From Mobula hypostoma (taxonomy: Eukaryota): a stretch of DNA of 64,000 bases. The notes below the pieces were generated by a model. The model was given only the letters and a program-made list of their open reading frames with translations, was not told where the DNA came from and ran no database searches. The stretch is taken from positions 8,122,001 to 8,186,000 of the forward strand of contig NC_086108.1 in assembly GCF_963921235.1 (NCBI RefSeq). Reading direction: 5' to 3'. The translations under genes and the position numbers were made by a program. Positions 16,483 through 49,034 of this stretch are shown piece by piece. The stretch's first letter is position 1, and every line of letters starts with the position of its first letter.

Positions 16483-16504
16483 GACTGTGTTAATATTACT
16501 TCAC

Positions 16505-25849: not shown

Positions 25850-26611
25850 CTGGGATGAAGGTGGTAGCAGTTACCCTCAGTGCGCTGTGTTGTGTTCGTT
25901 ACTGAGAGAGTGTGCAGGGTACATCAGGATGCTAGCATGCAGGATATTCGAATGAAGTTCATTGACACTGCTTGCACTGCATGTGAACCCCTCCCATGTG
26001 GGAGTCGCTGGTAGTTAACACTATTAACTACCACTGCATCTCCCCTTCTTCAAAAAAAAGAAAAACTTGGTTTGTGTTAATAACCCATAAAGCTGCATTG
26101 AAGTTATCATCACTGAAACTGAGCGATTTGGTTCACTTGACCCATAGCACGTAACTTATGCTCCTTACATAACACAAAAAAGAATTGCCAACATTATAAC
26201 CGTCTCTCCCTTTGTTTTTAAATAGTGTATCTCTTTGTTTTCCTCTTTCCTCACCAATTTCTCTTTTTTTTAAAGAAAGCCTCATTTTGTGAAATGTTTT
26301 CAACATTAGAACTCTTTTTATATAAAAAAAATGCTAAATTTAATGGAGGTCAGGGTAAACTACCTGAACACTCCAGCAAAGTGAGAGGATTATTCTGTCT
26401 CTTTAGTCACTTGCCCTAAGCTGTCAGGCCATGGAGTATATCTCTGTGGGGAGAGTTGTAAAAGAATAACACTATTAATCATCACTACAGGTTGGAGGCC
26501 ACATCAAACACAAAGTTATCAGGCTGTGGAATAATCCCCAGTCGGTCAACATCAGCCCTGTCCCCTGCCCTTCAGTACATCCATCACTACTTATATCTGC
26601 TCCTATGGTAC

Positions 26612-26975
26612 ACGTCCTCCACGAAGACCACAACCTTGTCATTGGGTTTGGAAGCTCACCTACCTCAGTGACCGGGAGATCTATGTTGGCTGGAGTCAGG
26701 GCCTTGTGCTTTGGCTCTTGGTGGGGTCACCCATGCCAAACAGGTCAAAGGGTGGAGGCCAGACTAAGAGTGGTCACCGGTCCTCCAGGTTTTTGGGGGG
26801 GGGGGTGGTGGTGTGGTTCAGCTCAGGACTGACAACCCAGATGGGTCAAAATAAATTGTTACAGAAACAGCAATGAAGAATCCTTCTACATCTGAGTGCG
26901 ATGGTATGGACAGACAGAGATGGAAGACCTTCACTGCTGCCCTAAATGCCAGTGGTGTAACAGGCAGTAAGGTAG
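26612..26975 (+). mobile_element. Non-autonomous RTE-like element (5' UTR joined to 3' end); related partial copy at 27805-28045
   Basis: 5' part resembles Expander/Rex3-type UTR; 3' end ...CAGGCAGTAAG. Confidence 0.55.
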
Positions 26976-27583
26976 TGTTACTGTACTTGTACGCTTCATT
27001 CTACAGGCGCACAGTAGAGAGCACCCTGACATGCACGGTGTGGAAACAGCACTGCGGCAGACAGCAGGGAGTCAAAACTGCCAGTGCACCACTGGTACCA
27101 GCCTACTCCCCAAATCGAGGACACTTATACAGAAAGGTGCCAGAAAAGGGCCAGTAGCATCATGACGGATCCCACCCACCCTGCTCATGGACTGTTTCGT
27201 AGCATCCACGCCAGAACCGCCAGACTCAAAAACAGTTACTTCCCCCAAGCCGTAAGGCCGTGGGGGTAGAGGGTCGTTGGCATGTAATGTTGGCACCGGA
27301 AGTGTGGCAATACTTGCAGGCTGCCCCCAGCACAATCCTTGCTGATTCGATTTAACCCAAATACTGTAGCACATTTCGCTGTATGTGACAAATAAAGGTC
27401 ATCTACCCCTGCACCTTCTTCGCTGCAGGGAAAACATTCCCAGGATACCCGGCCTCTCCCTATAACTCAAGTCCTCCAGCCCTGGTCACATCCTTGCCAA
27501 TCTTCTCAGATGAGAATGAACGCTGGTATCTGCTCAGGGAGGGTTTTCTCTAGTGATTTCCCATCATTATGGCGAGTCCTTAC

Positions 27584-27597
27584 CTTCAGTGGTGATC
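27584..27597 (-). CDS. PLEKHG2: PLEKHG2-like 14-nt microexon (GSPLK)
   Basis: Long polypyrimidine tract then cccAG GATCACCACTGAAG GTAAGG; supplies the phase 1 to 0 change needed by the flanking exons. Confidence 0.68.
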
Positions 27598-29099
27598 CTG
27601 GGAGAGTTGGAGAGAGGCAGCAAGGGAGAAAACAAAAGAGAGAAGGTATTGTTAGCATCTATTGTGTTGAAATATTCAAACTCATTTAGAACATAGAACA
27701 GTACAGCACAGTTCATACCCTTCAGCCCACAGTGTGTGATGACATTTTAACCCACCTAGATCTACTCTAAGATCAATCTAACCCTTCCCTCCCATATAGC
27801 CCTCCGGGTTCGGGGGTTCAACTCAGGACTGACAACCCTGACTGGTAAAACAAAATTGTTCCGGAAACAGCAATGAAGAATCCTTCTACATCTGAGTGTG
27901 ATGGTATTCCTGAGTCTCCACCCGGGATTTGCATGACTGACAGTAGTGAAAACTGAGAGGAAGCTACTGACACGATGAAGGAAGCCCTGAACACTGCCAG
28001 AGATGGAGGACATTCACTGCTGCCCTAAACACCAATGTAAGTAAGTCACAAACACGACAAATTCTGCAGATGCTGGAAATCCAAAGCCACACACACAAAA
28101 TGCCGGAGAACCTCAGCAGGTCAGGCAGCATCTATCGAAATTAATAAACAGCCCACATTTTGAGCCAAGACCCTTCTTCAGGACTGGAAAGGAAGTCCTC
28201 ACCCTCACCCACCCATCCAGCTTCCCCCTCGCATGGTCTCACCTATCACCTGCCAGCTTGTTGTCTTTCTCCTAGCCCCACCTTCTTCCCCGCTGCCTTT
28301 CCAGTCCTGATGAAGAGCCTCATTCCAAAATGTCGACTGCTGCTTCCCCACCTGCCCTGCTGAGTTCTCCGGCATTTTGTGTCTGCACGACTCACGTTCA
28401 CACTTCCAATCCCAAACCTGGCTCCTCTTAGAAAAATTGAAGTTAAGCACATCTCAGCTCGATCCCTTCCCTCAGACAATATTAAAAAGTGAATTTATTT
28501 CGGCAGCTCATTTGCGAAGTTTTACATCAAAGCATTTGACAGCAAAAGCCATCGGCTCTTTAAAGAGACGACAAAACAATCAGAGGTTGGCCAGAGGGCC
28601 ACATCAATAAATAATGATGCATCAGGAAATGAGGAGAGAGAGCCGCCAGTCACAGCTGGCTTTTATCTTCCTCACTGAATTTCTGCTTCCCTAATTCAGT
28701 AAATTATAACAAAAAACATTTACAACTCCTCTCTTGTGGGTCATACAAAGTGCAAATAAACAAGTAACAATCTGAGCTGAAGTGCGGCAGAAGGGTGTTC
28801 TTCTCCTGAATTCCTTCATTAATTTGCCTGTGTCAGGGCAAGTCAAGTCAAGCTTACTGTCATTAAACTCTATAAATGTACACTGTCAGATGAAGCAATG
28901 TTTGTCTGGACCAGGGTGTCCAGCACAGACGTACATATAACGCACAATAACGTAGGAAAGTAAGAATTAAATCGGCAAATGAATTGTGCATAATTAAACA
29001 AAGTAAAGTGCATAAATTAAATATTGCAGGGTACAGTATTGCGAATTAACCAGTGACACTTCAAATGTGATGCGGCAGGGAGCTCAGAAACCTAGTGGC

Positions 29100-29640
29100 C
29101 TGGGGAAAAATCTGTTTCCTACCCTGACCGTTCTTGTTTCTATGCATCGGAGTCTCCTGCCTGATGGTAGAAAGTCAGAGGATGCTGGGTGGGTGGGTGG
29201 GTGGGACCACTGATAATACGAAAGGCCCTGCGTAAGCAGCACTCCTGATAAATGTCCCCGATGGATGGTAGGGAGATCCCTATGATCCTCTCAGCCCTTC
29301 TCACAGACCTTTGTAGGGACTTCCAACTAATGCTTGGATGCTCCCAAGACCAGATGGAGATGCAACTTGTCAGGACGCTGTCAACGGTGCTCTTGTAAAA
29401 TGCAGTTAGGATGGTGGAGGGAGGAGAGCCTCACTTTCCTCAATTTCCTTGGGAAGTGGAGGCACTGCTGTGCCTTCTTGTTCAAGGAGGTGATACTAAG
29501 GGAGCTGGTGAGGTTGTCCGTGATGTGAACTCCTAGGAACTTGATGTACTTAACTCTCTCTACAGAGGAGCCATGTATTCGCAGAGAGGGATGGTACATC
29601 TGCCCCCTCCTGAAGTCCACACTAATTTCCTTGTCTTCTC
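29100..29640 (-). mobile_element. Rex1/Babar-type LINE 3' remnant (many others, e.g. 1220-1560, 17100-17600, 18340-18700, 36900-37260, 40078-40290)
   Basis: DFRR...VERV..IKFLGVHITDNL; other copies encode RYRSLR..TTRFRNSYYP. Confidence 0.72.
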
Positions 29641-30071
29641 TGTGTTCAGACTTAGTCAGTAGCTGCTGTCCTTTGGGTCACAGTGAGAGTGAGGGTGAGA
29701 GAGAGTATTGAGGCAACTGAAAATGACGCCTGTACGTCGAATTAGGAGCTGAGCCAGACTGAAAAGTCAGGGTGTTGGGGGTCCGAGGTGATGGACGAGC
29801 TGGTTCAGCTCACTACTCCGCGACACTTACTCAGCCCTGCGCTGAACTATGGGTCTTGGACCCTCTTTGTGGACGTCAGTTCAGAACACTACTTGCTTGC
29901 GGTTATTGTTTGCATTATGTGTTTTTTATTTTCTCTCTGCACATTGCGGCTGTCTTTTTTAATGTGTTCTTTTGGGTTTCTTTGTCTTGCGTTTGCCTGT
30001 AAGGAGATGAATCTCAAGTTTGTACAATGTATACTGTGCGTACTTTGATAATAAATGTACTTTGAGCTTTG

Positions 30072-30300
30072 TGGTCTGGGTCTGGGTCTGTGGGTATGGG
30101 TGGGGTGTGGGTCTGGGTCTGTGGGTGTAGGTGGGGTCTGGGTCTGTGGGTGTAGGTGGGGTCTGGGTTTGTGGGTGCGGGTGGGGTCTGGGTCTGTGGG
30201 TGTGGGTGGGGTCTGGGTCTGTGGGTGTGGGTGTGGGTCTGTGGGTGTGGGTGGGGTCTGGGTCTGTGGGTGCGGGTGGGGTCTGGGTCTGGGTCTGGTC
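30072..30300. repeat. (GGGTCT/GGGTGT)n G-rich repeat
   Basis: Direct inspection. Confidence 0.92.
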
Positions 30301-30561
30301 TCGGCCTGAAACGTCGACTGCGCCTCTTCCTATAGATGCTGCTTGGCCTGCTGCGTTCACCAGCAACTTTGATGTGTGTTGCTTGAATTTCCAGCATCTG
30401 CAGAATTCCTGTTGTTTGCGTTTAAATTCACTACTGCAAAGCCTCTTCCGGTGATGCCTACACCGAAGAAGTTTAGATCCTCTCTTCGACGGGAGTTCAG
30501 TGAAACCATCTCTCACTGCTCCCCATCTCTTTCAAATCCCTTACTCACTCTTCCTTCAGTT

Positions 30562-30597
30562 AGTCCTGACGAAGGGTCTCGGCCTGAAACGTCGACT
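30562..30597 (+). ncRNA. Minimal type I hammerhead ribozyme motif
   Basis: AGTC-CTGACGA-AGG gtctcgg CCT-GAAA-C-GTC^-GACT; stem I AGTC/GACT, palindromic ACGT stem III; predicted cut after 30593. Confidence 0.8.
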
Positions 30598-30839
30598 GCG
30601 CTTCTTCCTATAGATGCTGCCTGGCCTGCTGCGTTCACCAGCAACTTTGAAGTATGTTGCTTGAATTTCCAGCATCTGCAGAATTCCTGTTGTTTGCGTT
30701 TAAATTCACTACTGCGAAGCCTCTTCCGGTGATGCCTACACCGAAGAAGTTTAGATCCTCTCTTCGACGGGAGTTCAGTGAAACCATCTCTCACTGCTCC
30801 CCATCTCTTTCAAATCCCTTACTCACTCTTCCTTCAGTT

Positions 30840-30875
30840 AGTCCTGACGAAGGGTCTCGGCCTGAAACGTCGACT
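30840..30875 (+). ncRNA. Minimal type I hammerhead ribozyme motif (identical second copy)
   Basis: Same sequence; predicted cut after 30871. Confidence 0.8.
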
Positions 30876-33800
30876 GCGCTTCTTCCTATAGATGCTGCCT
30901 GGCCTGCTGCGTTTACCAGCAACTTTGATGTGTGTTGCTTGAATTTCCAGCATCTGCAGAATTCCTGTTGTTTACTGTCCTTTTCTCCTTGGCCGGTGAG
31001 TGGGCTCTGATCCCAGGGGCTGGTCCCAAGAACACTAAATGAGGAGCTAAAAGATGGTACCAGAGGTTTTTGCAGACCCAGGTGACATCTTCCCCATTCA
31101 TCAGAGATACATCTTATTCTTCTTTTCTCATGTCTCTCTTTTCAAGGTGGCTTGGGTCCTGTCGGGGTTCGTGATCCACAGCGGCAGCTCAAACTATGGT
31201 TCTTCACGGGGAGGTGAGTTCTTGCTCTCAGATGCGCTGTGGGACCTGGCGCTTCAATATTGCCAGGCGCAGCCCGGAAGATGTGCGCCTTGAGGTGTGG
31301 CCCCAGGGTATCCTGATTCCACATGATATTGCTATTCTTTGGGGTTTATTTTCTTGTTTCATGGATGTCTGCATAGAGTAAGAGTTGCAGGTTGTATACT
31401 ATATACATTCTCTGATATTAAATTGAATCATTAATCCTGTCCCGAAGGGCAGGTATGCCAGTACATGGGTGTGCGCGCAAGACAGGTGCTTCATCCTTTT
31501 CAACTCCACTGAGTACATTTCTGATTACAGGTAACCTGAAGAACGTGCTTGCAGCGGCAGATGGATGTAAATGTGATGTCTGAGATAGTGTCGAGTTCAC
31601 AGAAGCCAGTTTTAAACAGTGCGCCTCTTCAGAAACTATCCAACCAATCTCCCTGCCCTACCCTGTCTACAGTTCAGCTAACACGTCCCACAGCACGCAC
31701 AGGGGCACAGTAGGGACAAACTATCTCCATCCCTGAGATTCTGTCTGAAAGGAAGAACAAGAGGTGAGTGTTACGTGGAAATAAGGTCACGGGTTTGGTA
31801 AGTGAGATAGAAAACACTGATTACAAATAAGCACATTAGCCATTTATTTACAAGCAGTAAACCATTCAACCAGGCAGGTTACAGAACAGGTTCGGCAATC
31901 GCACTTGTGAGTTTGCAAGTTCCAGCTAGCTAGTGCTTCGTTATGGTGGTATTTAACTCCCTTCTTTTCATTCTAGTCTTGTCAACACTTGACCAAAAGC
32001 ACAGCAACATTTACTCTCCCTGCTTACTCTTGTCCTTGTCTGAGAAAGAGGACTACCATTTTGAGTAATGATGTAAGGGAATGGTAATCGTTTAGTACTT
32101 AGTTATTGCTTCCAGCTGCGGTATTGGCGTTAACTTTCAGTTTGAGAGTTTTAGTTAATGGCCCTGTTGGCCTAGCGTTATTGTTTTTCTTTTCCTTTTC
32201 CTTTAAGTTCTACAACAGTCTTCATCTGTGAACTGTTGACCCACTTTAGTATTGTTTTCTCTCTCTCTCTCTCTCTCCCTCCCTCCCTCTCTCTCTCCTC
32301 CCACCCACCCACCCACCCACTTGGGCCATATCCATTCATTTTTGGCACTGAGGGTAGATCCAGCCCCGGAATTTTATTTTTATTTAGAGATTGAGAACAG
32401 TCACAGGCCCTTCTGGCTCAGGGAGCCCGCACCACCCAGTTACACCCATGTGACCAATTAACCTGTATGTCTTTGGAATGTGGGAGAAGACAGGGAGAAC
32501 ATACAAACTCCTTACAGACAGTGCTGGAATTGAACCCAGGTTCGATAGGTTTCAATGAGGTCACCTCTCATTCTTCTGAATTCCCGTGAGTACTAGCCTA
32601 GAGCCATCAAACGCTCCTCATATGAAAAGCCTTTCAAACCCAAAATCATTTTTGTGAACTTCCTTTGAACCCTCTCCAATGTCAGCACATCTTTTCTTTA
32701 ATTAGGGGCCCAAAACTGCTCACAAAACTCCAAGTGAGGGCTCCATGTCTCTTTGTGACCAAGTGAGACATGCCCTCTTCACATTGCTACCATCAGGGAG
32801 GAGGTACAGGAACCAGTAGACACTCAACATTTCAGGAACAGTTTCTTCCCCTCTACTATCAGATTTCTGAACAGAGAGGCTTAGATAGAGAAGGCAGGGG
32901 TAGAAATGTCTAACACCAGAGGGCATGCATTGAAGGTGAGGGGGGGAGGTTCAAGGGGGATGTGAGGGGTAAGTTTTTTACTCAGAGAGTGCTGGATGCC
33001 TGGAATGTGCAGCCTGGTATGCTGATAGAGGCAAATACATTAGAAGCTTTTAAGAGACGTTTGTACAGGCACATGGATGTGAGGAAGATGGAGCAATATG
33101 AATACTGTGTAGGTAGGAGGGATTCATGTTTGGGAGTTTTTGATTTGCTTTTTTAGCTGGTTCAGCACAGCTTTGTGGGCCGAATGGCCTGTTCCTGTGC
33201 TGTACTGTTTTGTGTTCTACATTCGTTGCACTAATTATTTAATTTATATGAGTAGTATTGGCATTGCTTATGCCTGGCACTGTACTGCTGCCACAAAACC
33301 ACACACTGCACAACATACAGCACGTCAGTGATAAACAATTCTGATTCTGATTCACAGCTGTCCATGACACTGTGAACAGCAGACACTCTGGCCCGTTCCA
33401 CATTACCCAGAAAGTCAGGTATAAAACTCCCCTGAGTGCTCAAAAAGTTTAGCTTCATAAGTACAAAGAATTTGCAATTCTATAGCTTCCTTCTCATCCT
33501 GAGCCTTTACAACCAAGCAAAGTACTTTGTGAAAACTCGAGAGGTTGGGCATCTGGAGAACACGCAGAGGCACTGCAGGGACTCAGTGGGTTACACACTA
33601 TCTGCAGAGACACGAGTCTACATGAAGGGTCTCGACCCCAAAACCTTTGATCATTGGTTTCCCTCCATGGCCCACTGGGTTCCTCCAGAGGAACGCACAC
33701 AAAACGCCAGAGGAACTCAGAAGGTCAGGCAGCATCTATGAAAATGAATAAACAGTTGATGTTTTGGGCCAAGTCTATAGATGCTGCCTGACCTGCTGAG

Positions 33801-36800
33801 GTCCTACAGTGTTTTGTGTGTGTTATTCTGGTTATCCAGCATCTGCAAAATCTCCTGTGTTTACCTTCCACCTCACCCCCCCCACCCACCCCCAACAGTT
33901 TTTATTCTGGCTTCTTCCCCCTTCCTTTCCAGACCTGGTGAAGGGTCTCACAACAAAATGTTGACCGTTTACTCTTTTCCATAGATGCTGCCTGACCTGC
34001 TGAGTTCCTCCAGCATTTTGTGTGTGTTCCTCTGGACTTCCAGCATCTGCAGAACCTCTTGTGTTTAACTATGTTAGTTGAGATTGCTTCAGGAAGAAGG
34101 TAGGACCAGCGAACATCACCACCAAAGACGACAGCCTCAGAGGGTTCATGGAGCAACTCCTTTCATTTCTTGTACATTTCAGATGTGGTCCTGCTACTGT
34201 TAGACCCTGTCAACTATAATGTGGCCGACTGGGGGACCTGGTGCGTTGCTGTCTCTGAGAACGTTCCGTGAGGCTGCAACCACAGTGTACAGCATGGGGG
34301 CCTGGAAGCCAAGGAGACAGGGTGTGGGCCCATGATTGATTCCATCCCACCTCTCGCTCGCTGCAGCCAGAGGAGGGTCTCTCTCTCTCTCTCTCCTCCC
34401 TCCCTCTCCTCCAGAGGAATGGTCCATGTATTGGAGTGATCTCCCTCTCCCTCGATGCTGTCGGAGGATGGGGCTGGAGCAAGGTTTAATCGACGCGGAT
34501 TGTAGATTTGGACTTTAACTTGGGTTTATGACATGTACTAGTTCAAGCTGCTCTTTTTTTGTTACTACTGTCGGGCAGTTTTTGAATCAGGGCCACCTGC
34601 AAATAATGAACACTGAGCTGAACTGAACTAAAATATGCCTTTTGATTTTATGTTTTATATATCGTGTTTTTCGCTTGTGTTTTTTTTTGATGCTGTGCGC
34701 GATTTTTTTTTGCGTGTGGAGGGAGGGATGTTTGATATTTTTCTTTGAACAGGTTGGTTCCATGGTGTTTCTTTGTTTCGAGATTGTCTGTGGGAAGACA
34801 AATCTCAGGGTTGTATATTGCCTACATACTTTGATAAATAAAGGTACTTTAAATGGAGCTCAAACCACAAAACCACATCCCCTCCCCAGCGCCCCACTAC
34901 CACTCTAAGGTAAACTGGGACGCATTGTGCTGCTGCTAAAAGTCCTACAAACCACAACGATGACAAGTCCCTGTTACCCTGGCAACAAGTAAGTGGCTCA
35001 TCTGCACATTTAAGTTGACTGAGGGAACAGAAACCAATTTAAAGAGAAGAACTTTGCACTCATTATCTGCTGACAAGCTCTGGGATTGGTTGGGGGGGTG
35101 ATTTTGCTTTATAACGTAGCTCAGAGGTAATTGGAAATGAGTTTACTTTAAGTCTCTTCAACAAATATGTGAAAGACAGAATAATTTTGGCTGCCTTCTG
35201 CATTGAAAGTCAATTGGATTTTTAAAAAAATATTGTAGATGGCATCAGGATTCCATTAGAGCCGCTACAGAAAATTACAGGCATTCATGCAGATCCTTGG
35301 AGCTCGGATTCCTGACGGCTGATCAATGAGGCAGACAGACTTGCATCTCCATCTCCTCAGTACTTATAACAGCCTCAGGACACTGTCCCAATGAGGTGCT
35401 TTGGGAGCACAGCTCTCTGCTGTAGGCAGCTAGCTGTGACAAAAAGGATGTTAATAAGGGGGTGGGTGAATCACAACCAGGATTATCATTTATTTAGCAA
35501 TACAGCACGGGACAGGCCCTTCCGACCCACAGAGCCACGCTGCCCTGGCCTGATCACAGGAAAAATTACACTGGCTAATTGACCATAAGATATAGGAGCA
35601 GAGTGAGGCCATTTGGCCATTTCATCATGGCTGATCCATTTTCCCTCTCAGCCCCAATCTCCTGCTTTCTCCCTGTATCCTGTGTGGATGAGATCTACAG
35701 TGAGATCCAATGGCCAGGAAGGTGGTGCAGTAACGCCCCGTGGAGAGCGAAGGGCACGACGAGGCACAGACGACGTCACGGTCATCCACTGCAGTCAGGG
35801 AAGACCCCAGTTTGTGATGCTTGTTCACAACACTGGACCTGGACTTCCGAGGTCGAGAGAGTGAAACTGTCCCAGTGTAACGGCTTTTCTACTTTAAAAA
35901 CTCTCCCGCACAGGTGTCCTGTCATCATCGGACACAGCGGAGAACCACCACCAGCACGTACTGAGCAAAAAGAGAGCAGGAAAAGTGAGGTCGAGTTCAT
36001 GGGCGCAATGGCCGTTCGTTCAGAAATCTGATGGCAGTGGAGAAAAAGCTGTTCCTAAAATATAGAGTGTGTGCCTTCAGGCTCCTGTACCTCCTCCCTG
36101 ATGGTAGCAAAGAGAAGAGGGCATGTCCTGGGTGATGGGGGTCCTTAACGAGGCATCACCTTTTATAGATATCCTCGATGCTAACACAGGACTCAGATTC
36201 AGCCCTATTATCAGTGACAAATGCCACGAAGTTTGTTTTACAGCAGCAGTACAATGCAAGCCATAAAAATAGGTTAGAGTACAAAATATAAGAGATAAAT
36301 AGGTATCAGAAAATAATGAAATAGTGCTCACGGGTTCATACCACTGTGCAAGGTATAAAAATGGCCAAAAGTTACACAGTACTGTATTTGCCAATGTGGA
36401 GCAGAGAGCAGGTTTGTAAATCCGGCAGGAGTCAAGGATGTTGGGACAGGCAAGGGTGGAGTGTTGGGGGATGTGAGACAGGTGGCAGAGAAGGAGTGCC
36501 AGGGATGGGCGGTGTTACGGGTGCAGACACACCCGGCCCTGAGACACCAGGGAAAGTCATCTGATTGCGAACAATTAGTTTATTGATCATTACAGAATGT
36601 CTCTCTGGTGCTTCCCGCTCCCTCCCCTCTCCCTGCCCCTTTTTCCCTGCCTCCTTCCCACTCTCAGTCCACAATAGTTTATCACCACTCACATACATCA
36701 TGAAACATGATTTTTTTGTGGCAGCAGTACAGTGTAATGCATAAAATCACGACAGTACTGTGCATGAGTCTTAGGCATCCTCACTACAGTATACTTGTGC

Positions 36801-38092
36801 ACAAGTTGGTGATAGTAAATGTGACTCTGATATGCCTGTGTCCGTATAAAGTCCTTGGAACAGACATTGGGGGGGGGGGGGATGGATAGTTACCTATATT
36901 GACTTGGTATGTCACCAAAGACTCTCACAAAGGTCTACAGATGTACTGTGGAGAGCATTCTAACTGGTTGCATCACCATCTGGTGTGGAGGGGCCAGTGC
37001 ACAGGATCGGAAAAAGCTGCAGAAAGCTGCAAACTGAGCCAGCTCCATCATGGGCACTGGCCTCCCAGCATCGAGGACATTGTCAAGAGTTAATGGGTCA
37101 AAAAGGCGGCTTCCATCATTAAAGACCCCCACAATCCAGAACATGCCCTCTTCTCATTGCCACCATCAGGAAGGAGGTACAGGAGCCTGAAGGCACATAC
37201 ACAACACTTTAGGAGCAGCTACTTCTCCACCATCAGATTCCTGAATGGACAATGAATCCATGGACACCACCTCACTTTTTTTTGCATTACTTATTTAAAT
37301 TAATTTACACATATATGTCTTATTGCAAGTTCTAGCTTTTTATGTATTACATTGTGCTGCTGCCACAAAACAATAATTTTCACGATGTAGTATATGTCAA
37401 TGATAATCAACCCGATTCTGACAAGTCCTTGTTCATGTAAAGCCCTTTGCCCAGTGCAGACAGTTGCCTGTACCATTTCCAAGGACCTCAGTGCCTGTCG
37501 GGTCAGCGTTATCAATGTTAATTGATTCCGACATGCATTCACAAGGGAATGGCTTTGAACATTTAACACCTCAAAAGCACATCTCCACTTCAACCCTCTC
37601 TCCAACAGCAGTGTCCCAGGATCAAAGGCCTTGCAAAACACAGGGATAAAATAAACAGCTCACGATTAAATTTCAATCTGCGCCCCCGGCCACAGGAGGG
37701 GCAAAAAAATATATATATATCCAAGCAGAGCGAGAAGCTTTTTATCTCCTGCTTCCGTGTAATCTAAATGTTCCTGCTGCTTGTTTAGGGGAGGTGGTGG
37801 TGGTGGTGGTGGGGGGGGGGGGGGGGCGTGGTTGGCTCCAAAAACGCAGGGGAGTGAATTAGGTCTTCGTCAGCTATCAAAGGAAATGGATCTGTTAATC
37901 TCGCCGACGAGAGACAGTCTGACCATCAGACTGGATATTCGGGGCATTTCCAACCATCAGCTTCCTGGGGGCCATCACTGATCAGGCGCTGGGTGTCTGG
38001 CAGAGACAGGCTCAGAACCGGAACCCCAAAATATACATTGACGTAATCTGCTTCTTCAGGAGTTTGAGGAGATTTGGTATGTCACCAAAGAT

Positions 38093-39345
38093 TATCTTAC
38101 TGAATTTTTTGATGAAGTTACTAGGAAAGTTGACGAGGGTAAAGCGGTGGATGTTGTCTATATGGACTTCAGTAAGGCCTTTGACAAGGTTCCACACGGA
38201 AGGTTAGTTAGGAAGGTTCGATCGTTAGGCATTAATATCAAAGTAGTAAAATGAATTCAGCAGTGACTAGATGGGAGACGCCAGAGAGTAGTTGTGGATA
38301 ACTGTGTGTCAGATTGGAGGATGGTGTGTAGCGGTGTGCCTCAGGGATCTGTACTGGGTCCAATGTTGTTTGTCATATATATTAATGATCTGGATGATGG
38401 GGTGGTAAATTGGATGAGTAAGTATGCAGATGATATTAGGAAAGGTGGAGTTGTGGATAATGAAGTAGGTTTTCAAAGCTTGCAGAGAGATTTAGGCCAG
38501 TTAGAAGAGTGGGCTGAAAGATGGCAGATGGAGTTTAATGCTGATAAGTGTGAGGTGCTACATTTTGGTAGGACTAATCAAAACAGGACATACATGGTAA
38601 ATGGTAGGGCATTGAAGAATGCAGTAGAACAGAGGGATCTAGGAATAATGGTGCATAGCTCCCTGAAGGTGGAATCTCATGTGGATAGGGTGGTGAAGAA
38701 AGCTTTTGGTATGCTGGCCTTTATTAATCAGAGCATTGAGTATAGGAATTGGGATGTAATGTTGAAATTGTATAAGGCATTGGTAAGGCCAAATTTGGAG
38801 TATTGTGTACAGTTCTGGTCACCGAATTATAGGAAAGATGTCAATAAAATTGAGAGAGTACAGAGGAGATTTACTAGAATGTTGCCTGGGTTTCATCTCC
38901 TAAGTTACAGAGAAAGGTTGAACAAGTTGGGTCTTTATTCTTTGGAGTGTAGAAGGTTGAGGGGGGACTTGATAGAGGTATTTAAAATTATGAGGGGGAT
39001 AGATAGAGTTGATGTGGATAGGTTTTTTCCATTGAGAGTGGGGGAGATTCAAATAAGAGGACATGAGTTGAGAGTTAAAGGGGAAAAGTTTAGGGGTAAC
39101 ATGAGGGGGAACTTCTTTACTCAGAGAGTGGTAGCTGTGTGGAACGAGCTTCCAGCAGAAGTGGTTGAGGCAGGTTCGATGTTGTCATTTAAAGTTAAAT
39201 TGGATAGCTATATGGACAGGAAAGGAATGGAGGGTTATGGGCTGAGTGCAGGTCGATGGGACTAGGTGAGAGTAAGAGTTCGGCACGGACTAGAAGGGCC
39301 GAGATGGCCTGTTTCCGTGTTGTAATTGTTATATGGCTATGGTTA
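38093..39345 (+). mobile_element. CR1 LINE 3' fragment, same subfamily
   Basis: ORF 38294..39265 RT C-terminal half, nearly identical peptide to the other copies; 5' truncated. Confidence 0.93.
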
Positions 39346-39484
39346 TATTACTAGCACATTGCTACCGAGGTTCTGTGGAGAGCATTCTGATTGGTTGCAT
39401 CACCATCTGGTATGGAGGGTCCAATGCTGAGGAGTGGAAAAAGCTGTAGGAAGTTGCAAACTCAGTCAGCTCCATCATGGGCAC

Positions 39485-40072
39485 TATAATATAATGTTAA
39501 GAAGTTAGCATCTCGCAGGCCTCTTGTGACCTTGGCTATTTTGTAAGGGTCATAGCGGCTAAGACTTTGAAAAAAGCATAGAAGTACAAGTGTTTCTCAC
39601 AAGGTAAGATGAGTGGGTGATACTATACTTGGTATGCGACGCTGTAACTTCAGTCCTTGTTTATGGAACAATTTGTACCATTGTTTGATTAACTGCTGTA
39701 AGAAACATAGCGCTTGCTAGATAAGCTAACGAATGCTTGTTTCAAGGGTGGGAAGCTCTGAGGGGTAAGCCTATGTCTGGCTGTTCCCAGACACAAGGGT
39801 AGTTGAGCTGTTACACGAACAATTTATGGCTGATAAGTTAAACAATACTCATCTGTACAGAAACCAAGGGGGTGAACCCACCTGTTCTATGTACATGACT
39901 GCATATGTATAAAAAGTACTGAATTTGCTTCAGAAACCAGAGACTCCCGGAGCAGCCCAAGAGGGGGATTAAGGAGGGGTCTCTCTGGTAACTTGCTAAT
40001 AAAGAGTAAAAGTTACATTCACCGTAGTACGTGGTATCTTTGCATCGGGTAGATCGAAAGAAGTTTACGACA
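39485..40072 (+). mobile_element. Solo LTR (588 bp)
   Basis: 5-bp TSD GGCAC at 39480-84 and 40073-77 splitting a Rex-type remnant; ends T(A)TAAT...TTACGACA; TATAAAAA 39908, AATAAA 39998. Confidence 0.75.
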
Positions 40073-42116
40073 GGCACTAGCCTCCCCAGCATCCAGGTCA
40101 TCTTCAAAGGCCAGTGCCTCAAAAAGGTGGCATCCATCATTAAGGACCCTCATCACCCAGGACATGCCCTCTTCTCATTACTACCATCAGGAAGGAGGTA
40201 CAGGAACCTGAAGGCACACACTCAATGATTCAGGAACAGCTTCTTCCCCTCTGCCATCAGATTTCTGAATGGACTTTGAACCCATGAACACTACCTCACT
40301 ATTTATTTCCCTCTACTTTTTACACTTTTTCTCTGCCGAAGGGAGGTGGAAGGCACTCCTTCCCTCTGCTAGCCTGCAAGTCATCCTTGGGCAAAGTGTA
40401 TCATCTGCTTAGCCCAACCCACATGATCAGGGTCATGTGAAGCCATGGTTGGAGGTGGTGGATGGTTGTATGTACGGCTGGTGTATATCACAAGTCCTGG
40501 TTATGCGACCACTGACGCCAAGCAGACAATCTCTGAAGAGTTTTGATAATGGCTGAGGTCACCCATCTTGTAAAGACATTGCCCAGAAGAAGGCAATGGC
40601 AAACCAATTCTGTAGAAAAAACACTTGCCAAGAACAATCATGGTCATGGAAAGACCATCACAAACAAGAGAAAATCTGCAGATGCTGGGAAACCCATGAT
40701 AGCCCGGGTCATATAATGATGATGACATACAGTGCCTATAAAAATACTCACCCTGCCCCCAGAAGTTTTCATGTTTTATTGTTTTACAACATTGAATCAC
40801 AGTGGATTTAATTTAGCTTTTTTGACACTGATCAACAGAAAAACACTCTCATGTCAAAGTGAAAAAAGATCTCTACAAAATAATCTAACTTTATTACAAA
40901 TATAAAACACAAAATAATTGATTGCATAATTACTCACCCCCTTCAAATCAAAACTTAGCACCTTTGGGAGCAATTACAGCCTTGAGTCTGTGTGGCTAGG
41001 TCTCGATCAGCTTTGCACATTTAACACTGCAATTTTCTCACCATTCTTTTTTACAAAACTGCTCAAGCTCTGTGTGATTGCATGGGTTTGCGAGAGAACA
41101 GCCCTTTTCAAGTCCACCCACAAAGTCTCAATTGGATTGTGGTCTGGACTCTGAGTTGGCCACCCCAGGTTATTAACATTGTTGTTCTTAAGCTATTCCT
41201 ATGTAGCTTTGGCTTTATGCTTGGGGTCATTGACTTGCTGGAAAACAAATCTTCTCGCACATCACAGTTCTCTTGCAAATTGAGTCAGGTTTTCCTCAAG
41301 CATGTCCCTATATCTTGCTGTGTTCATTTTACCCTCTACCGTAACAAACATTCCAGGGCCTGCAACAGTGAAGCATCCCCACAGCATGATGCAGCCACCA
41401 CCATGCTTCACCATAGGGATGGAGTGCTTTTGATGATGTGTGGTGTTTGATTCACAACAAACATAGCGTTTAGTCTGATGGCCAAAAAGCTCAATTTTGG
41501 TTTCATCGGACGACAGAACCTTCTTCCAGCTGACTTCAGAGTCTCCCACATGCCTTCTGATAAACTCTAGATGAGATTTCATGCGATTTTTTTTTCTCTC
41601 CATAGTTTTGGTTTCATCAGACCATAGAACCTTTTTCCATTTGGCTTCAGAGTCTCCTACGTGCCTTCTGGCAAACTCTAGCTGAGATTCTTGTGAGTTT
41701 TTTTTCAACATTAGCTTTCTCTTTGCCACTCTCCCATAAAGCTGTGACTGGTGAAGCACCCGGGCAACAGTTGTTGTTTGTGCAGTCTCTCCCATCTCAG
41801 CCACTGAAGCTTGTAACTCCTCCAAAGTTGACATAGGTCTCTTGGTTGTCTCCATCACCAGTCCACTTCTTGCACTGTCACTCAGTTTTTGAGGACGGCC
41901 TGCTCTAGGCATACTTACAGCTGTGCCATATTCTTTCCATTTCCTGATGATTGATTTAACTGTACTCCAGGGGATATTCAGTGACTTGGAAATTTTCTTG
42001 TATCCATCTCCTGACTTGTGCTTTTCAATAACCTTTTTCGCAGAGTTGCTTGGAAAGTTCTTTTGTCTTCATGGTGTAGCTTTTGCCAGGAGACTGACTC
42101 ACCAGCAGTTGGACTT

Positions 42117-45100
42117 CTTCTTCTTCTCTGTCTTGTTTTACGGCAGTTGGCACCCAGCTTAATGGTGCATTACCGCCACCTTCTGCTCCGGAGTGTGCAA
42201 TACACTTACATTCGAAATCCCTTCACCAAATCACACACACACACCCACACATACCCTAACCTACACTTTATCCTCCCATCTCTGGCCATCCTAGTACCCT
42301 ATTCCTGTTTATCCATCATATCCTATAAAAAAAACCCTGTACCCCTTAAGAAAGCTAAAAATACCCTGACCTGTGCCCAGCAACCATGCCCAGTGACCTT
42401 TTTAATGTGAATTCCTGTACCCCCAATTCCCTTAGATTGATTATCATCATCTCTCTCTGTATCCCATACTTCCTGCAACTCAGAACTACATGTTCTACTG
42501 ACTCCTCTTCCTGACATTCCTCACACAATCCTGTCTGGTGTTTCCCGATTATTTTCAATGTTTTGTTTAATGCACAGTGCCCCAGCCTTAACCTAGTCCA
42601 CACAGTTTCCTCTCTTCTGTATCCACAACCTACCCTAGTATCTGCAACACTTTTTTGTATTTGATATAAATGCCTCCCTTTCCCTTCCCTGTCCCATCTT
42701 TCTTGCCACATTTGGTTGATTTTTTCCCAGATTACGCACTTAACCTCTGCTTTACTGATACTAATGTGCATTTCTATATTTTCTTTCTTTAACGCCCTCT
42801 TTGCCAACTCATCCACCCTCTCATTCCCCTTCACCTCTACATGTGCTGGAACCCATAGAAATTTTACCCGACCTCCCTGATTTACGATTCTTGTGACTAA
42901 CTGAAGGACTTCATAAAGTACATCTTGCCGACTGTTTGTGTGAAAAGACCTTAAACTTGCTAGAACTGAGGATGAATCTGAGCATATCAACACTTTGACT
43001 TGTCTAGCTTTCTCCACCCATTGCAACGCAACCAACACTGCCAGCATCTCCACTGTATACACCCCTAACTTATTAGATGTTCTTCTGCTGATTCCAATTT
43101 CTTTTGCTGGTGTAGCCACCCCAAACCCTGTCACTCCTGTTTCAGGTTCCTTAGCACCATCCATATAAATCTGAGTATAATCACTATACTTTTCCTTCAC
43201 ATGACAGTTAAATGCACTTACCAAATCAGTTTTATAGTTTCCTTTCCTTTTTACCTCTAACAAATGCCAGTCTATGTCAGGCCACACAAGCTTCCATGGA
43301 GCTACAACCGGATAAACTACTGAAGGACTTATCCTTAGATCAAACACTCCACATTCTTTAGCAATATCAATCCCAACCCGACTAAAGTTATCTCTGAAAC
43401 CTCCCATTTTCCCAGCACTCCTGCAACACTCCTTTAGTAGGGTGAGAATCATTGTGCCCCTGCAAGTTAGCCCAGTAGTTTGCCATCAATTGCATCCTTC
43501 TTAGTTCCAAAGGCATTATTCCCACTTCTACCTGTAGGGCTGACACTGGTGATGTTTTAAAAGCCCCACTGCACACTCTCAAAGCCCGAGCCTGAATCAC
43601 ATCCAGTTTCCTTATAAGAGACCTTGCTGTTGATCCATAAACTATATTTCCATAGTCCAGCACAGACCTTACTAAAGCCACATACATTCTCTTCAACGCT
43701 GAACAACTTGCTCCCCATTCCCTACCAGTCAAACATCTCATCTCATTTATTACTTTTTTACATTTCTCCTCAACTTTCCTGATATGGTCTGCCTGTGATA
43801 ATCATGAATCAAATATAACTCTCAGAAATTTAAATGATCCAACCCTTTCTAATTCAATCCCATATATCCTTAACTTCTTCCCCACCTCAATTCTTTTCCT
43901 GGTGAAAAATACAGTTTGAGTTTTTTCTACTGAAAATCTACATCCCCAATCATAACCCCACTCCACCACTTGCTCCTTGTAGTTTCCTGATTATATGGTC
44001 CATGTTCCTGCCTCTTTTCCACAAGGCCATCCGCAAACAGTGACCTACCTATATCCACTGGTACCTTTGTGAAGACATCATTGATAATAATGATGAAAAG
44101 TAACGGGCTAATCACACTACCTTGAGGTGTGCCATTTCCCACTATGTACTGTTTTAATAATTCTGATCCAATCCGAACTTGAATTTTTCTACCAAACAAA
44201 AAATCTTTAATCCAATTAAAAACTCTCCTACTAACCCCCATCTTGTGCAGTTTAATTAACAATCCTTCCTTCCACATCGTATCATAGGCTTTTTCTATGT
44301 CAAAAAACACTGCAACTACTGATTCTATATTTGCCTGGGCCTTTCTTATTTCAGTCACTAACCTTATCACTGAGTCCATGGAATTCCTTTCCTTCCTAAA
44401 ACTACTCTGGTAACTTGCCAACATTCCTCTCTTCTCAAGCTCATACAACAACCTTTCTGTTATCATCCTTTCCATTGTCTTGCATATATTTGATATTAAT
44501 GCTATTGGTCTGTAGCTAGTGGGTTTTGACGGATCCTTGCCAGGTTTCCTTATTAGAATTACTACTGCTTCTTTCCATGCATTTGGTAATCTTCCCTCCT
44601 CCCACACTCTGTTATAAAAATGCAGCAATTTCAGGAGCGCTCCTTCTCCTAGATTTTTTAGCATAACGGAGCATATCAGATCTTTCCCTGGGGATGTTGG
44701 TCTCGATCTCTTTATTGTTCTCACCATTTCTGCCAACGTAAATGGATCATCAATTATATCATCTGTTCCTTCCCTCCTGCTTAACACACCTGGGTGTTGG
44801 CTCATTGTTCTTTCCCTTCTCCTTCTCCCTTCTTCAGACAAATTTTCTGAACTGTGTATCTGTACAAATGACTTGACCACGATCTCAGCCATATCCCTAC
44901 TGGAGACTGCTGTTTCCTCCTCCGATATCACTTCTGGATATTTCCAGTCCCTTCTATCTCCCCCCATCCTCTTAATCATTCCCCATACCTCTCACACAGG
45001 TGTTGCTTTCCTATTTTATTTCAAAAACTCCTCCAACTTGCCCTTTTAGTTTGACGTATAGTTCTTCTCACCACTGCCTGTGCTTTCTTATATTGAATCA

Positions 45101-47385
45101 AATACTGCATATTATAGGTTCTTTTAACTAGCCTGAATGCTCTATTTCTGTTTTTTACAGCCTGACAACATTCCTCTGTCCACCATGGTACCAGTTTTCT
45201 ATTCATCCTATTTTTACTCCTGGGTATAGATCCTTCTGCTGCCATGATAATTGCTGAAGTCACCTGACAGTTTAATTCATCTACATTTCCAGAAATATCA
45301 ATCTTTGTCAACCCTTCTTCACTCAACTTCTGGAACTTACCCCAATCTGCTTTTCCAAACACCCACTTTGGGATTCCACCACCTGGTTTTACTTCAACTC
45401 TTTCACCCACTGAACATAAAACTGGGGAGTGATCACTGCCTACTATTGAAACAATCCAAACTCCCCAGTTACTAACTCCAGCCAAGTTATGACACTAACG
45501 TAATATCTAATACTGACTCAGTTCCTGTTGTATCCTTGTGCCGCTACCATCATTCATACACACCAAATACCTTTCTTCTATCAAATCTTCAATTACCTTT
45601 CCATTTGAAGCTGTAATCGGATCCCCCCCCCCCATATTGTGCTGTGAGCATTGAAATCTGCACACCACACTACTTTATGTCTCTTTTGTCCTTGTATCCT
45701 TAATAGACTGTCTGAATCCAACCTTTTACATGGATTGTAGTAGTTAATTATAACCACTCCCTCTCCTCTCCCACACTTCCACCACTATGTATTCCTGATC
45801 ATCTCCTTTTTCCAGTACCCTATATGGTATACCTTGCTTGATTAACATAGTACAACCCCCTCCTCCCCCTAGATTTCTATCTTTCCTTATCATTGTATAC
45901 CCATATACCACAAAGTTTAAATTTAGTTTCAACCAAGTTTCCTGAATACACACTATATCCGGTTTTACAACAATTTCTTTAATAAAGTGCTTGAATTCCT
46001 GGCTATTGGCCAGTAAGCTCCTTGCATTCCATTGTAAAAGAATCACCATAATTAGTATCAACCAACATATGACACTTCCTGGCTTGACTGATTACTGAGG
46101 TTCTCCCTCACTTCCTCCCATGTCAGTCCTACTAACTCTAAATGGTTCACTGCTGCTTTGACCACCAGCTGAATTTTGTCACTTTTTGACTTTACCTCAG
46201 CAGTACTATTAATCACTCCTGCAATGAATGTTACTAGAGCCTTTTTTCTACATAAATCCTGTCATTTGTTCTTTGTTGCATCTCTCATATCCCTATTGCT
46301 CCCTGTTCATTAGGAGCATTATTCTGTTCTCTTGACATTTTTACAGCTTCTGCATAAGTGGTCTTTCTTTTCTCTCTTATTTCTTGAACTTTAGTCTCCC
46401 GTCTCATAACCTCACACCCACTATATGCAACATTATGAGCTCCTCCACAATTGCAGCATTTTGGTTGAACTCCTGTTCCGTACTTTCCATATTCATGATC
46501 ACCCCCACATCTAGCACATCTCCTCTGCCTTTTACAGTTTTTAGCTTGTGTCCAAACCCTTGACAATTATAGCACCTCAGTGGCTTTGGCACATACACCC
46601 TTACTGGGTAACTCATGAAACCCAGGAACACCTTCCTTGTCACTCTTTCTTCTTCAAGTTCAATCAATACTGATTCACTTTCCTTTGTCATTCCCCCCTT
46701 TGTTGTTTTCAGTCTTTGAACATTCATTACTTTTCCTCCTTTGACATTCCTCTTTAACTCCTCCATATTTATACTCATTGGTACCCCCGAGATCACTCCT
46801 TTACAACCACTATTTTGTGCTCCCACCCTCCCTGTGTATTCCACCTTGCATTTTCCTATCTCTTTTAGCTTGAGTGCTTTCTCAAGTTGTTCCTCGTTCG
46901 CACATCTCACCAATAGGTTGCCATCATCTTTTGCAAATACTATTTCCCCTATCTTATTAGCCAGAGTTGTGTTAGCACAAACGGGTTAATTTTCTTCATG
47001 CTTCCTTGAGCCTTCTCATTAAACCTAATTATGACAACACCTTCTCACTGAACTTGTTCTTCTTCCTCACTTTCAGAGCTCTCTCCACTGTATTTTCTTA
47101 TTCTTTTGTTCCCTTTGTCTCGGTTTTCATTCATCCGTCCCCTCACTATGTCCTCATTCCCTTTATTTCTCCCTTCACAATAATCCATTTCTCCTCAGCT
47201 GCCTACCTCTGATCCCAAATCCCTATCCCACTCCTTCCCCACCCTCTTTCCCTCAACCCCTCTTTCACCTTGTTCGCCATTACCGGACCCGCGCGACCCC
47301 CTCCCAGCAATTCCCGCTCCTTCCCCACTCTCTTTCCCTCAACAAGTTCCGCAACCACATTCACACCACGTTCAGCTCCCGCCAA
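42117..47385 (-). mobile_element. Near full-length I-group (Nimb-like) LINE: CCHC ORF1, APE, RT, RNase H; frameshifted
   Basis: TSD CAGTTGGACTT at 42106-42116 and 47386-47396; (GAA)n 3' tail; motifs RCYNCQGFGH, QWNARSL, CIQETWL, GSDH, PQGSVISPLLF, WVPAHVEVKGNERVDELAK. Confidence 0.9.
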
Positions 47386-47412
47386 CAGTTGGACTTTCCA
47401 GATACAGGTGAA

Positions 47413-48037
47413 TTTGGCGGGAGGAGAAGATGGCGACGCGCCTGCGTGTGTGCAGCCCTCCGGTGAAAAATGATATCGTATCTGTTAAATAGGGGCCGTG
47501 GACAATTCTGATTTGATGGAGAATGGACATGAAAGCACAGAGGAACATCTGGAGAGATTTCTGAAACGCCCGTTCGCTGCTGTCGTTACTGTGTGGTCGG
47601 GAATCTTTCAGAGGGTAGGTCTCAAAATCCCCGGCCTTGCCTGCTTTTGGCGACCAAGAAGGAGGTCGAATTGTTCAGAAAAAAATGGCACTCGGTACTC
47701 AGTGTTGGAGAGCTGATCAGAGCTCGAAGTTTTCGGATGACTCAGAGTCGGATTGTGGTCGGCATGGCAGGGAGAGTTTTTCTTCCTTCTCACGTCTGCG
47801 TGAGATGTGGGACATTTGAGAGACTTTGAACTTTACTGTGCTCATGGACTTCTTCATCAAGTTATGGTATTGTTGCACTGTTGTAACTGTATGTTATAAT
47901 TATGTGGTTTTGTCAAGTTTTTTCAGTCTTGGTCTGTCTTGTGTTTTGTGATATCACACCGGAGGAAATAATGTATCATTTCTTAATGCATGCATTACTA
48001 AATGACAATAAAAGAGGACTACATGTCTTCATAATCA
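47413..48037 (+). mobile_element. Non-autonomous SINE-like retroelement inserted in the Tc1
   Basis: 3' part (aaatgacaataaaagaggact...ataatc) shared with copy at 11805-12287; Tc1 sequence resumes after it. Confidence 0.7.
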
Positions 48038-48649: not shown

Positions 48650-48945
48650 GAGTGTGTGTATGTGTGTGTGTGTTTATATACACACACACATCAATTCATC
48701 AAGTTAGTTATCAACTTGATATAATGTTACAACGCAGTATATGTGTGCACGTTACGTGCAAGTGCGCATGTGGGTGTGTGTGGGTATGTGTGAGTGTGTG
48801 CATGTGCATCTGGCTGTGTGTGCATGTGGGTGCATGGGTGTGTGAGAGTGAGTCTGAGTGTGCGCGGGTACGTGAGTATATGTTTTTGTGTGTGGGTGTT
48901 GCTGTGTGAACACACAGACCCAAGATACAGTCAGTGTGTGTTTGC
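48650..48945. repeat. Imperfect (TG)n-rich microsatellite
   Basis: Direct inspection. Confidence 0.85.
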
Positions 48946-49034
48946 GCACAAAATCGTCAATATGACACAACGGGGTTCCCCAAACAAAGATCACAAATTT
49001 TGAGGAGACACAGATGAAAAAGAGGATCACCTAC

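What the first reader, a model, noticed from the sequence alone, without database searches (positions are those of the whole stretch)
30296..30972. 278-bp tandem array with intact minimal hammerhead ribozymes: candidate retrozyme or circRNA unit
Seen: near-identical head-to-tail units with GUC sites at 30315, 30593 and 30871, spaced exactly 278 nt apart. Two carry a complete core AGTC-CUGACGA-stemII-GAAAC-GUC-GACU with CpGs preserved, which suggests a young copy. Stem III is only the palindrome ACGU and cannot close within one motif. Known: Penelope-like elements and metazoan non-LTR retrozymes carry such minimal type I hammerheads that cleave as dimers in tandem repeats. Inference: a + strand transcript, antisense to the host intron, could release a 278-nt monomer able to circularise and be mobilised by a Penelope RT.
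Basis: partly seen in the sequence, partly recalled or inferred. Interest (0 to 1): 0.8.

Follow-up and report, generated by a model that had tools for sequence, protein, structure and literature searches.

The report
Gutted Penelope element, doubled hammerhead unit
The 278-base repeat with two small hammerhead-ribozyme motifs is real, but it is built from the ends of a very common Penelope-type jumping gene of rays, likely a copy that lost nearly all its coding part and was likely lengthened later by a local duplication, so it is an ordinary member of a known kind and is predicted to self-cut poorly.

Summary
The array is real: 30297-30973, 2.4 units of 278 nt, 97.5-98.2% alike, with two full minimal hammerhead motifs and cleavage triplets ending at 30315, 30593 and 30871. 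It lies antisense in an intron of a PLEKHG2/3-like gene of a Mobula-like ray. The unit is a fusion. 30807-30973 is the 3' end (pLTR) of an abundant Penelope-like element (22 other hits in the window). 30696-30806 follows that pLTR in other copies and runs on into different sequence; it is likely the element's leader and first 25 codons. The unit is therefore a likely internally deleted element, with its deletion joint present twice. 'Intact' is overstated: G10.1-C11.1 is G.U, and the double hammerhead lies 28 kcal/mol above the predicted best fold. I favour a deleted insertion lengthened by local duplication (0.5) over copying round a ribozyme-made circle (0.3). Cleavage, RNA and copy number of the joint are untested. 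Minimal hammerheads in Penelope ends and Penelope-derived tandems are published, and this scan noted similar gutted arrays elsewhere in this genome. Interest 0.25.

The parts
30297..30973 (+). Whole array, 2.43 units of 278 nt: truncated pLTR - leader piece - joint - pLTR - leader piece - joint - pLTR
30297..30417 (+). First pLTR, 5'-truncated inside helix II; keeps GAAAC-GUC (site 30315) and the 3' strand of helix I but not CUGANGA; joins the flanking repeat through a shared GGTCT
30418..30528 (+). Leader piece, copy 1: 36 nt after the pLTR end, then ATG 30454 and 25 codons; likely the 5' start of the element's body
   Evidence: role inferred
30529..30695 (+). 3' UTR remnant and pLTR, copy 2, after joint 30528/30529
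   Evidence: same position in the unit as 30807-30973
30561..30598 (+). Minimal hammerhead motif 1: helix I 5' strand 30561-30565, CUGACGA 30566-30572, extra A, helix II 30574-30585, GAA, ACGU 30589-30592, site C30593, helix I 3' strand 30594-30598
30547..30576 (+). Predicted competing hairpin (-10.5 kcal/mol) that buries CUGACGAAGGG; repeated at 30825-30854
30696..30806 (+). Leader piece, copy 2 (ATG 30732); in public contigs it follows the pLTR end and continues past 30806 into unlike sequence
30806..30807 (+). Deletion joint (second copy; first at 30528/30529); no exact microhomology seen against the loose-end letters
   Evidence: loose ends, compared by eye
30807..30973 (+). 3' UTR remnant and last pLTR, ending at the family's usual 3' end, 102 nt after the cleavage site
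30839..30876 (+). Minimal hammerhead motif 2 (site C30871)
30073..30296 (+). G-rich minisatellite (25-nt unit x8.5, GGGTCT hexamers) abutting the truncated 5' end
25853..49000 (-). Host intron (approximate bounds) of a PLEKHG2/3-like RhoGEF gene; the hammerhead strand is antisense to it

Best explanation
The array is made of the hammerhead-bearing end repeat of an abundant ray Penelope-like retrotransposon joined to a 111-base piece that is likely the element's own leader and first codons; it is likely one internally deleted insertion that was likely lengthened afterwards by a local duplication, and it is predicted to be a poor self-cutter. Steps. (1) Shown: 30807-30973 is the family's 3' end, and the array stops where an independent young insertion of the family stops. 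(2) Inferred: the element's reverse transcriptase started at that end, and the coding middle was lost, by a template jump or a later deletion, leaving pLTR-leader-joint-pLTR (399 nt). (3) Inferred: misalignment between the two 121-nt direct repeats duplicated the 278-nt interval, which doubled the joint and left a middle pLTR that is a mosaic of the outer two. (4) Inferred: the two hammerheads are passengers and would cut only as a dimer, probably with help from the element's protein. Confidence is about 0.9 that this is a gutted Penelope element, and 0.5 for this whole route.
For: The pLTR part has 22 further BLAST hits in the window, while the leader piece has none beyond its two array copies (E<1 search; one 12-nt chance hit). 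Older pLTR copies have GIY-YIG remnants directly upstream at 3703-4074, 1810-1929 and 16358-16537. The 3703-3936 frame matches ray proteins with RT and GIY-YIG parts at 79-91% identity. Contigs that match up to 30806 continue into one shared unlike sequence (12 in X1, 10 in X2, 1 in X16). Contigs that start at 30807 are preceded by a different, C-rich sequence (56 in X1, 50 in X2, 2 in X10, 1 in X16). Joints from 30973 back to 30698/30699 in X1, X2 and X13, and loose ends beginning GCGTTT behind 30973, show that pLTR followed by leader is the family's own layout. The copy at 18872-18994 ends at the same 3' base and sits in a 14-bp target duplication. Units 2 and 3 share T at unit position 28 (30602, 30880), while unit 1 has C, the majority letter (90% and 87% of summed contig depth in X1 and X2). 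The middle copy follows the right copy at positions 28 and 47 and the left copy at 62, the order one crossover would give. The double hammerhead is 22-31.5 kcal/mol above the best fold in 4 of 4 windows tried; 2 of 60 shuffled contexts were as unfavourable.
Against: The mosaic argument rests on three sites, and half of all patterns would fit one crossover by chance; one back-mutation in unit 1 would explain position 28 under a circle model. The array ends at the family's 3' end and is 5'-truncated mid-unit, as more-than-unit copying would leave it. No protein hit confirmed the leader piece as the start of the ORF; the support is position plus 10 further stop-free codons read by eye. ViennaRNA ignores tertiary and protein stabilisation, and even shuffled contexts cost 22 kcal/mol, so these energies do not show inactivity. 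The monomer folds somewhat better than shuffles (z -2.3 linear; -1.9 circular). An unchecked scan note (e1-8158177) reports doubled joints at several loci of this genome, which would suit an RNA-level route.
Confidence: 0.5

Rival explanations
1. Rolling-circle copy (nascent retrozyme): a parent deleted copy elsewhere was transcribed, cut at its two hammerheads, closed into a 278-nt circle and copied 2.4 times round by the element's reverse transcriptase into this intron.
For: The unit keeps both cis signals such a circle would need: the hammerhead and the family's 3' start site, 102 nt after the cleavage site. The Anolis element starts 111-118 nt into an ORF that begins at stem II (PMC11167929); here the end lies 122 nt from stem II. 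The joint is identical in both units, the right end is the usual one and the left end is truncated. Size (278 nt) and GC (48.6%) lie in the retrozyme range (PMC7229834 passages). A circle model for PLE tandems is proposed in PMC4209133.
Against: Laps copied from one circle should start identical, yet units 2 and 3 share a minority letter that unit 1 lacks. Helix II is weak and a hairpin buries the core. No target duplication was found (best match 5-6 nt). Hammerhead mutants did not affect insertion in vitro, and no reads ended at the cleavage site, for the Anolis element.
Confidence: 0.3
2. Single insertion event with repeated template jumping: the reverse transcriptase, copying an uncut tandem or circular full-length RNA, skipped the coding region twice at the same place, or re-copied its own product, so the array was born as it is with no short circle and no later duplication.
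For: Partial tandem and inverted structures are typical of PLE insertions (PMC8557442 passages). The 18.9-kb copy shows template switching in this family. Other leader-to-pLTR skips appear in single contigs (table 5). Different source pLTRs would explain the shared T.
Against: Two jumps at the identical base with no exact microhomology (by eye) are unlikely.
Confidence: 0.13
3. Assembly artefact: one unit was written twice in a very high-copy repeat.
For: The best public run held only 0.77 of the sampled words of 30400-30870.
Against: The copies differ at five scattered sites. A contig in X1 matches 30952-31142 with no difference, so the right end of the insertion exists, although it has only 22 letters on the repeat side.
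Confidence: 0.04

Closest known systems
Minimal type I hammerheads (min-HHR) in pLTRs of metazoan Penelope-like elements (Cervera and De la Pena 2014, PMC4209133; parts 1-2 of 4 read)
   Same: Core boxes, 4-5 bp helix I, extra base after A9, no helix III loop with a palindromic 15.2-16.2 pair, position in the pLTR, mostly single truncated copies with some pairs 100-700 bp apart.
   Different: Helix II is only 4 bp and closes with G.U in place of the conserved G10.1-C11.1; here two motifs lie on one strand 278 nt apart, likely because the coding region is deleted.
Metazoan non-LTR retrozymes (Cervera and De la Pena 2020, PMC7229834; passages read)
   Same: Non-coding head-to-tail units of 150-450 bp, one type I hammerhead per unit, GC under 50%.
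   Different: Those carry canonical hammerheads, occur as families and were shown as abundant circular RNAs; this one carries the minimal PLE form, and neither a family nor an RNA is shown.
PLE-derived vertebrate retrozymes (Li, Clavereau, Pollet 2026, bioRxiv 10.64898/2026.07.22.740005; parts 1-3 of 5 read, supplements closed)
   Same: Two consecutive units with a complete motif, derived from a pLTR; reported in one chondrichthyan (mean unit 363 bp); local tandem amplification is one route they discuss.
   Different: They relate units to pLTRs only; here the unit also holds a piece that is likely the leader and ORF start. Only 1 of their 9 tested dimers cleaved. Their closed supplementary tables may list a related family.
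Endonuclease-bearing PLEs with the CX2-5CxxC linker (Neptune/Nematis type) and non-autonomous PLE derivatives such as MRC1 (Craig et al. 2021, PMC8557442; passages read)
   Same: 5' truncation, partial tandems forming pLTRs, inverted 5' pieces, a 30-40-bp tail region, internal deletions, multicopy head-to-tail non-autonomous insertions.
   Different: The array has no RT or endonuclease; the clade call rests on related ray proteins, not on this copy.
Poseidon element PAc of Anolis (Frangieh et al. 2024, PMC11167929; parts 1-2 of 4 read)
   Same: A fixed internal start of reverse transcription about 110-120 nt downstream of hammerhead stem II; a hammerhead in the pLTR.
   Different: In PAc the ORF starts at stem II; here the candidate ATG lies 36 nt beyond the pLTR end. 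Likely a different clade.

Membership tests
PLE minimal hammerhead (min-HHR) | CUGANGA, GAAA and NUH boxes in type I order with a 4-5 bp helix I | tested here: met
   Two copies; 0 of 100 shuffles match; AGUC/GACU plus one U.G pair
PLE minimal hammerhead (min-HHR) | No stable helix III; palindromic 15.2-16.2 allowing a dimer | tested here: met
   ACGU at 30589-30592 and 30867-30870; a nested double hammerhead can be drawn
PLE minimal hammerhead (min-HHR) | Extra base after A9 and conserved G10.1-C11.1 pair | tested here: not met
   Extra A present, but the pair is G.U; C at that place (30863) has 22-28% of summed depth in X1 and X2
PLE minimal hammerhead (min-HHR) | Located in the pLTR of a PLE | tested here: met
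   Homologous window copies follow GIY-YIG remnants
PLE minimal hammerhead (min-HHR) | Self-cleavage as a dimer | not testable with these tools
   Fold prediction unfavourable, which is not an assay
Non-LTR retrozyme | Non-coding tandem units of 150-450 bp with at least two consecutive complete type I motifs | tested here: met
   278 nt, two complete motifs; the published rnabob descriptor was not run
Non-LTR retrozyme | Canonical hammerhead with a helix III loop and loop 1-loop 2 contacts | tested here: not met
   No helix III loop, 4-bp helix II; no Rfam hammerhead match
Non-LTR retrozyme | Low GC and highly self-paired circle | tested here: inconclusive
   GC 48.6%, 55% paired, z -1.9 circular, z -2.3 linear
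Non-LTR retrozyme | Unit spread as a family over many loci | tested here: inconclusive
   No genome held; no second locus in the window; the contig look at the joint cannot decide it
Non-LTR retrozyme | Expressed as linear and circular monomer RNA | not testable with these tools
   Only assembled contigs were laid; they cannot show strand, ends or circles
Non-LTR retrozyme | Target-site duplication when present | tested here: not met
   Best match of the 3' flank in the 500 nt upstream is 5-6 nt; the minisatellite may hide it
Autonomous EN+ Penelope-like element | Single ORF with RT and GIY-YIG endonuclease | tested here: not met
   The array holds 25 codons before the joint; no Pfam hit for the 92-aa frame; no tblastn hit of P0071 in the array
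Neptune/Nematis-type PLE (parent family) | CX2-5CxxC linker before the GIY-YIG motif | tested here: inconclusive
   Present in 5 of 5 related ray proteins examined; not in the window's own remnants; no tree built

The most novel reading that the evidence does not exclude
The array is a snapshot of a retrozyme being born. An internal deletion shrank a Penelope element to a 278-nt unit that keeps its hammerhead and its reverse-transcription start site; the unit was cut out, circularised and copied 2.4 times round. Doubled deletion joints of this kind would be a genomic footprint of the circular RNA intermediate long proposed but not shown for Penelope transposition. The circle would also carry one 92-codon frame whose stop overlaps its own start.
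Probability: 0.27. Interest if true: 0.55.

Novelty: new member of a known kind. Interest (0 to 1): 0.25.

Why it matters
As a locally duplicated deleted copy it matters little: it is one more example of Penelope ends forming short hammerhead tandems, and a warning that tandem-plus-motif screens will count such relics as active retrozymes. If the joint recurs at other loci or the circle exists, it would give a base-resolved case of a retrozyme arising from a Penelope element and a small substrate for testing whether Penelope reverse transcriptase copies ribozyme-made circles.

Tried and rejected
No whole genome is held, so the joint could not be counted. Rfam: 0 matches at gathering score in 64 kb; 9 weak matches at E up to 10 in 27500-31500, none a hammerhead. 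Protein searches for the leader frame found nothing usable: 0 of 5 candidates; 2 unrelated repetitive proteins among 1.84 billion; no Atlas hit; only 6-22-residue chance matches in 29 metagenome loci of distant PLE relatives. Exact DNA patterns gave 0 matches in metagenome and viral contigs. Joint 30806/30807: none of the 32 listed pieces (1,908 more not shown; the longest are kept) from X1, X2, X10 and X16 crosses it. The tool warns that a hole proves nothing, and low-copy links between very high-copy repeats can be dropped, although other low-depth joints do survive; I do not use this as evidence. Summed contig depth in X1 (flank about 10-22 in its lowest bins, leader piece 82,000-159,000, pLTR 7.6-11.6 million) is not a copy number and is used only to say that both halves are repeats. 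The sigma-70 promoter scan does not apply to a vertebrate. Rejected: an independent satellite unrelated to PLEs; capture of host DNA as the spacer (it follows the pLTR in other copies); my first label Poseidon (linker motif). Four paper searches listed no paper on this ray family by title or abstract start; subscription journals and Repbase were not covered.

Full report
Observation. Tandem Repeats Finder reports 30297-30973, period 278, 2.4 copies, 97% matches and no indels. Unit 1 and unit 2 differ at 5 of 278 sites; unit 3 differs from each at 3 of 121. The three cleavage triplets end at 30315, 30593 and 30871. The complete motif occurs twice in the window and in 0 of 100 shuffles; the looser CTGANGA...GAAAC pattern gives 5 matches against 1.24 expected. 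CpG o/e is 0.72 in the array and 0.38 in the window, in line with a fairly young copy. Rfam has no hammerhead match here.

Setting. A 481-residue exon frame is 98% identical to a Mobula birostris protein with RhoGEF and PH domains, and its relatives are named PLEKHG2 or PLEKHG3. Its exons map to the minus strand at 57523-50205 and 25852-14306, with a small exon near 49,050 seen in translation.

The hammerhead half is a Penelope end. The stretch 30807-30973 has 22 further BLAST hits in the window at 75-94% identity (alignment of 14 pieces). Older copies at 2.2, 3.4 and 16.1 kb have GIY-YIG coding remnants just upstream. The remnant at 3703-3936 matches ray proteins at 79-91% identity for the top five hits (12 hits among 88 candidates), and P0071 and P0074 show RT-like sequence and a Pfam GIY-YIG match slightly below the curated cut-off. 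Five of five such proteins examined carry a CX3-4CxxC linker, which PMC8557442 (passages) gives for Neptune and Nematis and not for Penelope/Poseidon. The lead to check this came from scan notes. The clade call is indirect.

The other half is likely the element's own leader. 30696-30806 has no further copy in the window, but it is a repeat in public contigs. Contigs matching it stop at 30806 and continue into one shared unlike sequence in three coded organisms (12, 10 and 1 contigs in X1, X2 and X16). Contigs matching from 30807 are preceded by a different C-rich sequence (56, 50, 2 and 1 in X1, X2, X10 and X16). Joints from 30973 back to 30698/30699 and loose ends starting GCGTTT show that the pLTR is followed by this piece in other copies. 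An ATG lies 36 nt into it, 25 codons precede the joint, and the 30 loose letters beyond carry no stop in that frame (read by eye; weak alone). No protein search confirmed this frame. I infer that the unit is an element with its coding middle deleted, and that the joint occurs twice (30528/30529 and 30806/30807).

Ends. The right end is the family's usual end: an independent young copy at 18872-18994 stops at the same base and sits in a 14-bp target duplication with an inverted 5' piece, a layout described for PLEs. It lies 102 nt after the cleavage site and 122 nt from the start of helix II, close to the internal start sites mapped for the Anolis element (111-118 nt into an ORF that begins at stem II; PMC11167929, parts 1-2 of 4). 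The left end is cut inside helix II and meets a G-rich minisatellite through a shared GGTCT. No target duplication was found.

The ribozyme. The motif fits the minimal hammerhead of PMC4209133 (parts 1-2 of 4): short helix I, extra A after A9, palindromic ACGU in place of helix III. It fails one listed feature: G10.1-C11.1 is G.U, and helix II is worth only -2.0 to -2.5 kcal/mol. U is the majority letter there among similar copies, so this is a subfamily trait, not local decay. A -10.5 kcal/mol hairpin buries the CUGACGA box, and the forced double hammerhead lies 22-31.5 kcal/mol above the best fold in four windows. Shuffled contexts cost 22.0 +/- 2.6 and 2 of 60 reach the real 28.1; most of the penalty is thus inherent to the model, and the natural context adds about 6. 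Published minimal hammerheads cleave weakly as dimers. The Anolis one needs the element's protein and is dispensable for insertion in vitro. One of nine predicted Xenopus retrozyme dimers cleaved (bioRxiv 10.64898/2026.07.22.740005, parts 1-3 of 5; its supplements are closed and may list a related chondrichthyan family). Cleavage here is untested.

How the joint came to be doubled. A deleted insertion, pLTR-leader-joint-pLTR, has two 121-nt direct repeats 278 nt apart; misalignment between them duplicates the interval and makes the middle pLTR a right-then-left mosaic. The data fit: the middle copy follows the right copy at positions 28 and 47 and the left copy at 62, and the T shared by units 2 and 3 is the minority letter. 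This is three sites, half of all patterns would fit by chance, and one back-mutation would rescue the alternative. It fits the ends and the identical joints, and an unchecked scan note (e1-8158177) says that doubled joints recur in this genome. The test that separates them, the copy number of the joint, could not be run, since no genome is held and the contig look cannot decide it (see Tried and rejected). I give local duplication 0.5, circle 0.3, repeated template jumping 0.13, artefact 0.04.

Comparison and verdict. It works like the PLE-derived hammerhead tandems of the 2026 preprint and meets that paper's two-unit criterion in outline. It does not meet the canonical-hammerhead feature of the retrozymes of PMC7229834 (passages), and neither a family nor an RNA is shown, so I do not file it as a retrozyme. 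Four paper searches listed no paper on this ray family by title or abstract start, but the kind is published, and scan notes describe several similar gutted arrays on other DNA of this genome (unchecked, and read after I had stated the same reading). New member of a known kind; interest 0.25.

Noticed in passing
window 18857-19055: Young insertion of the same subfamily: minus-strand pLTR ending at 18872, an inverted 50-nt piece with a full CUGACGA...GUC core but no 5' strand of helix I, all inside a 14-bp target duplication.
   Followed up: partly
window 30073-30301: The minisatellite's hexamer GGGTCT equals the 5' strand of helix II, exactly where the array is truncated: either microhomology joining or a repeat seeded by stuttering at the cDNA end.
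   Followed up: no
window 30454-30732: A 92-codon open frame covers one unit exactly, and its stop overlaps the next unit's ATG (TGATG). No Pfam or homologue hit; may be chance.
   Followed up: partly
table 5, places 30727 to 30835, 30756 to 30931, 30783 to 30910, 30800 to 30888: Other leader-to-pLTR skips appear in single low-depth contigs, the first in both X1 and X2; letters between are not known. Deleted derivatives of this family may be common.
   Followed up: no
window 28049-28385: Two old pLTR copies of opposite orientation with decayed hammerhead cores form an inverted repeat.
   Followed up: partly
window 10273-11355 (+) and 41262-42068 (-): Tc1-like transposase frames, the first open for 360 codons (named by eye from recalled motifs).
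   Followed up: no
window 42355-46985 (-): Broken non-LTR retrotransposon with zinc-knuckle, endonuclease, RT and RNase H-like frames (named by eye from recalled motifs).
   Followed up: no
window 22398-23971, 38267-39265, 59857-60705, 61885-62997: CR1-like RT fragments (named by eye from recalled motifs).
   Followed up: no
window 9606-9949 and 53375-53816: Young-looking tandem arrays: 95 bp x3.6 (98% matches) and 39 bp x11.4 (94%).
   Followed up: no
window 49507-50019 (-): Decayed Penelope RT-region remnant, 37% identical to P0071.
   Followed up: partly
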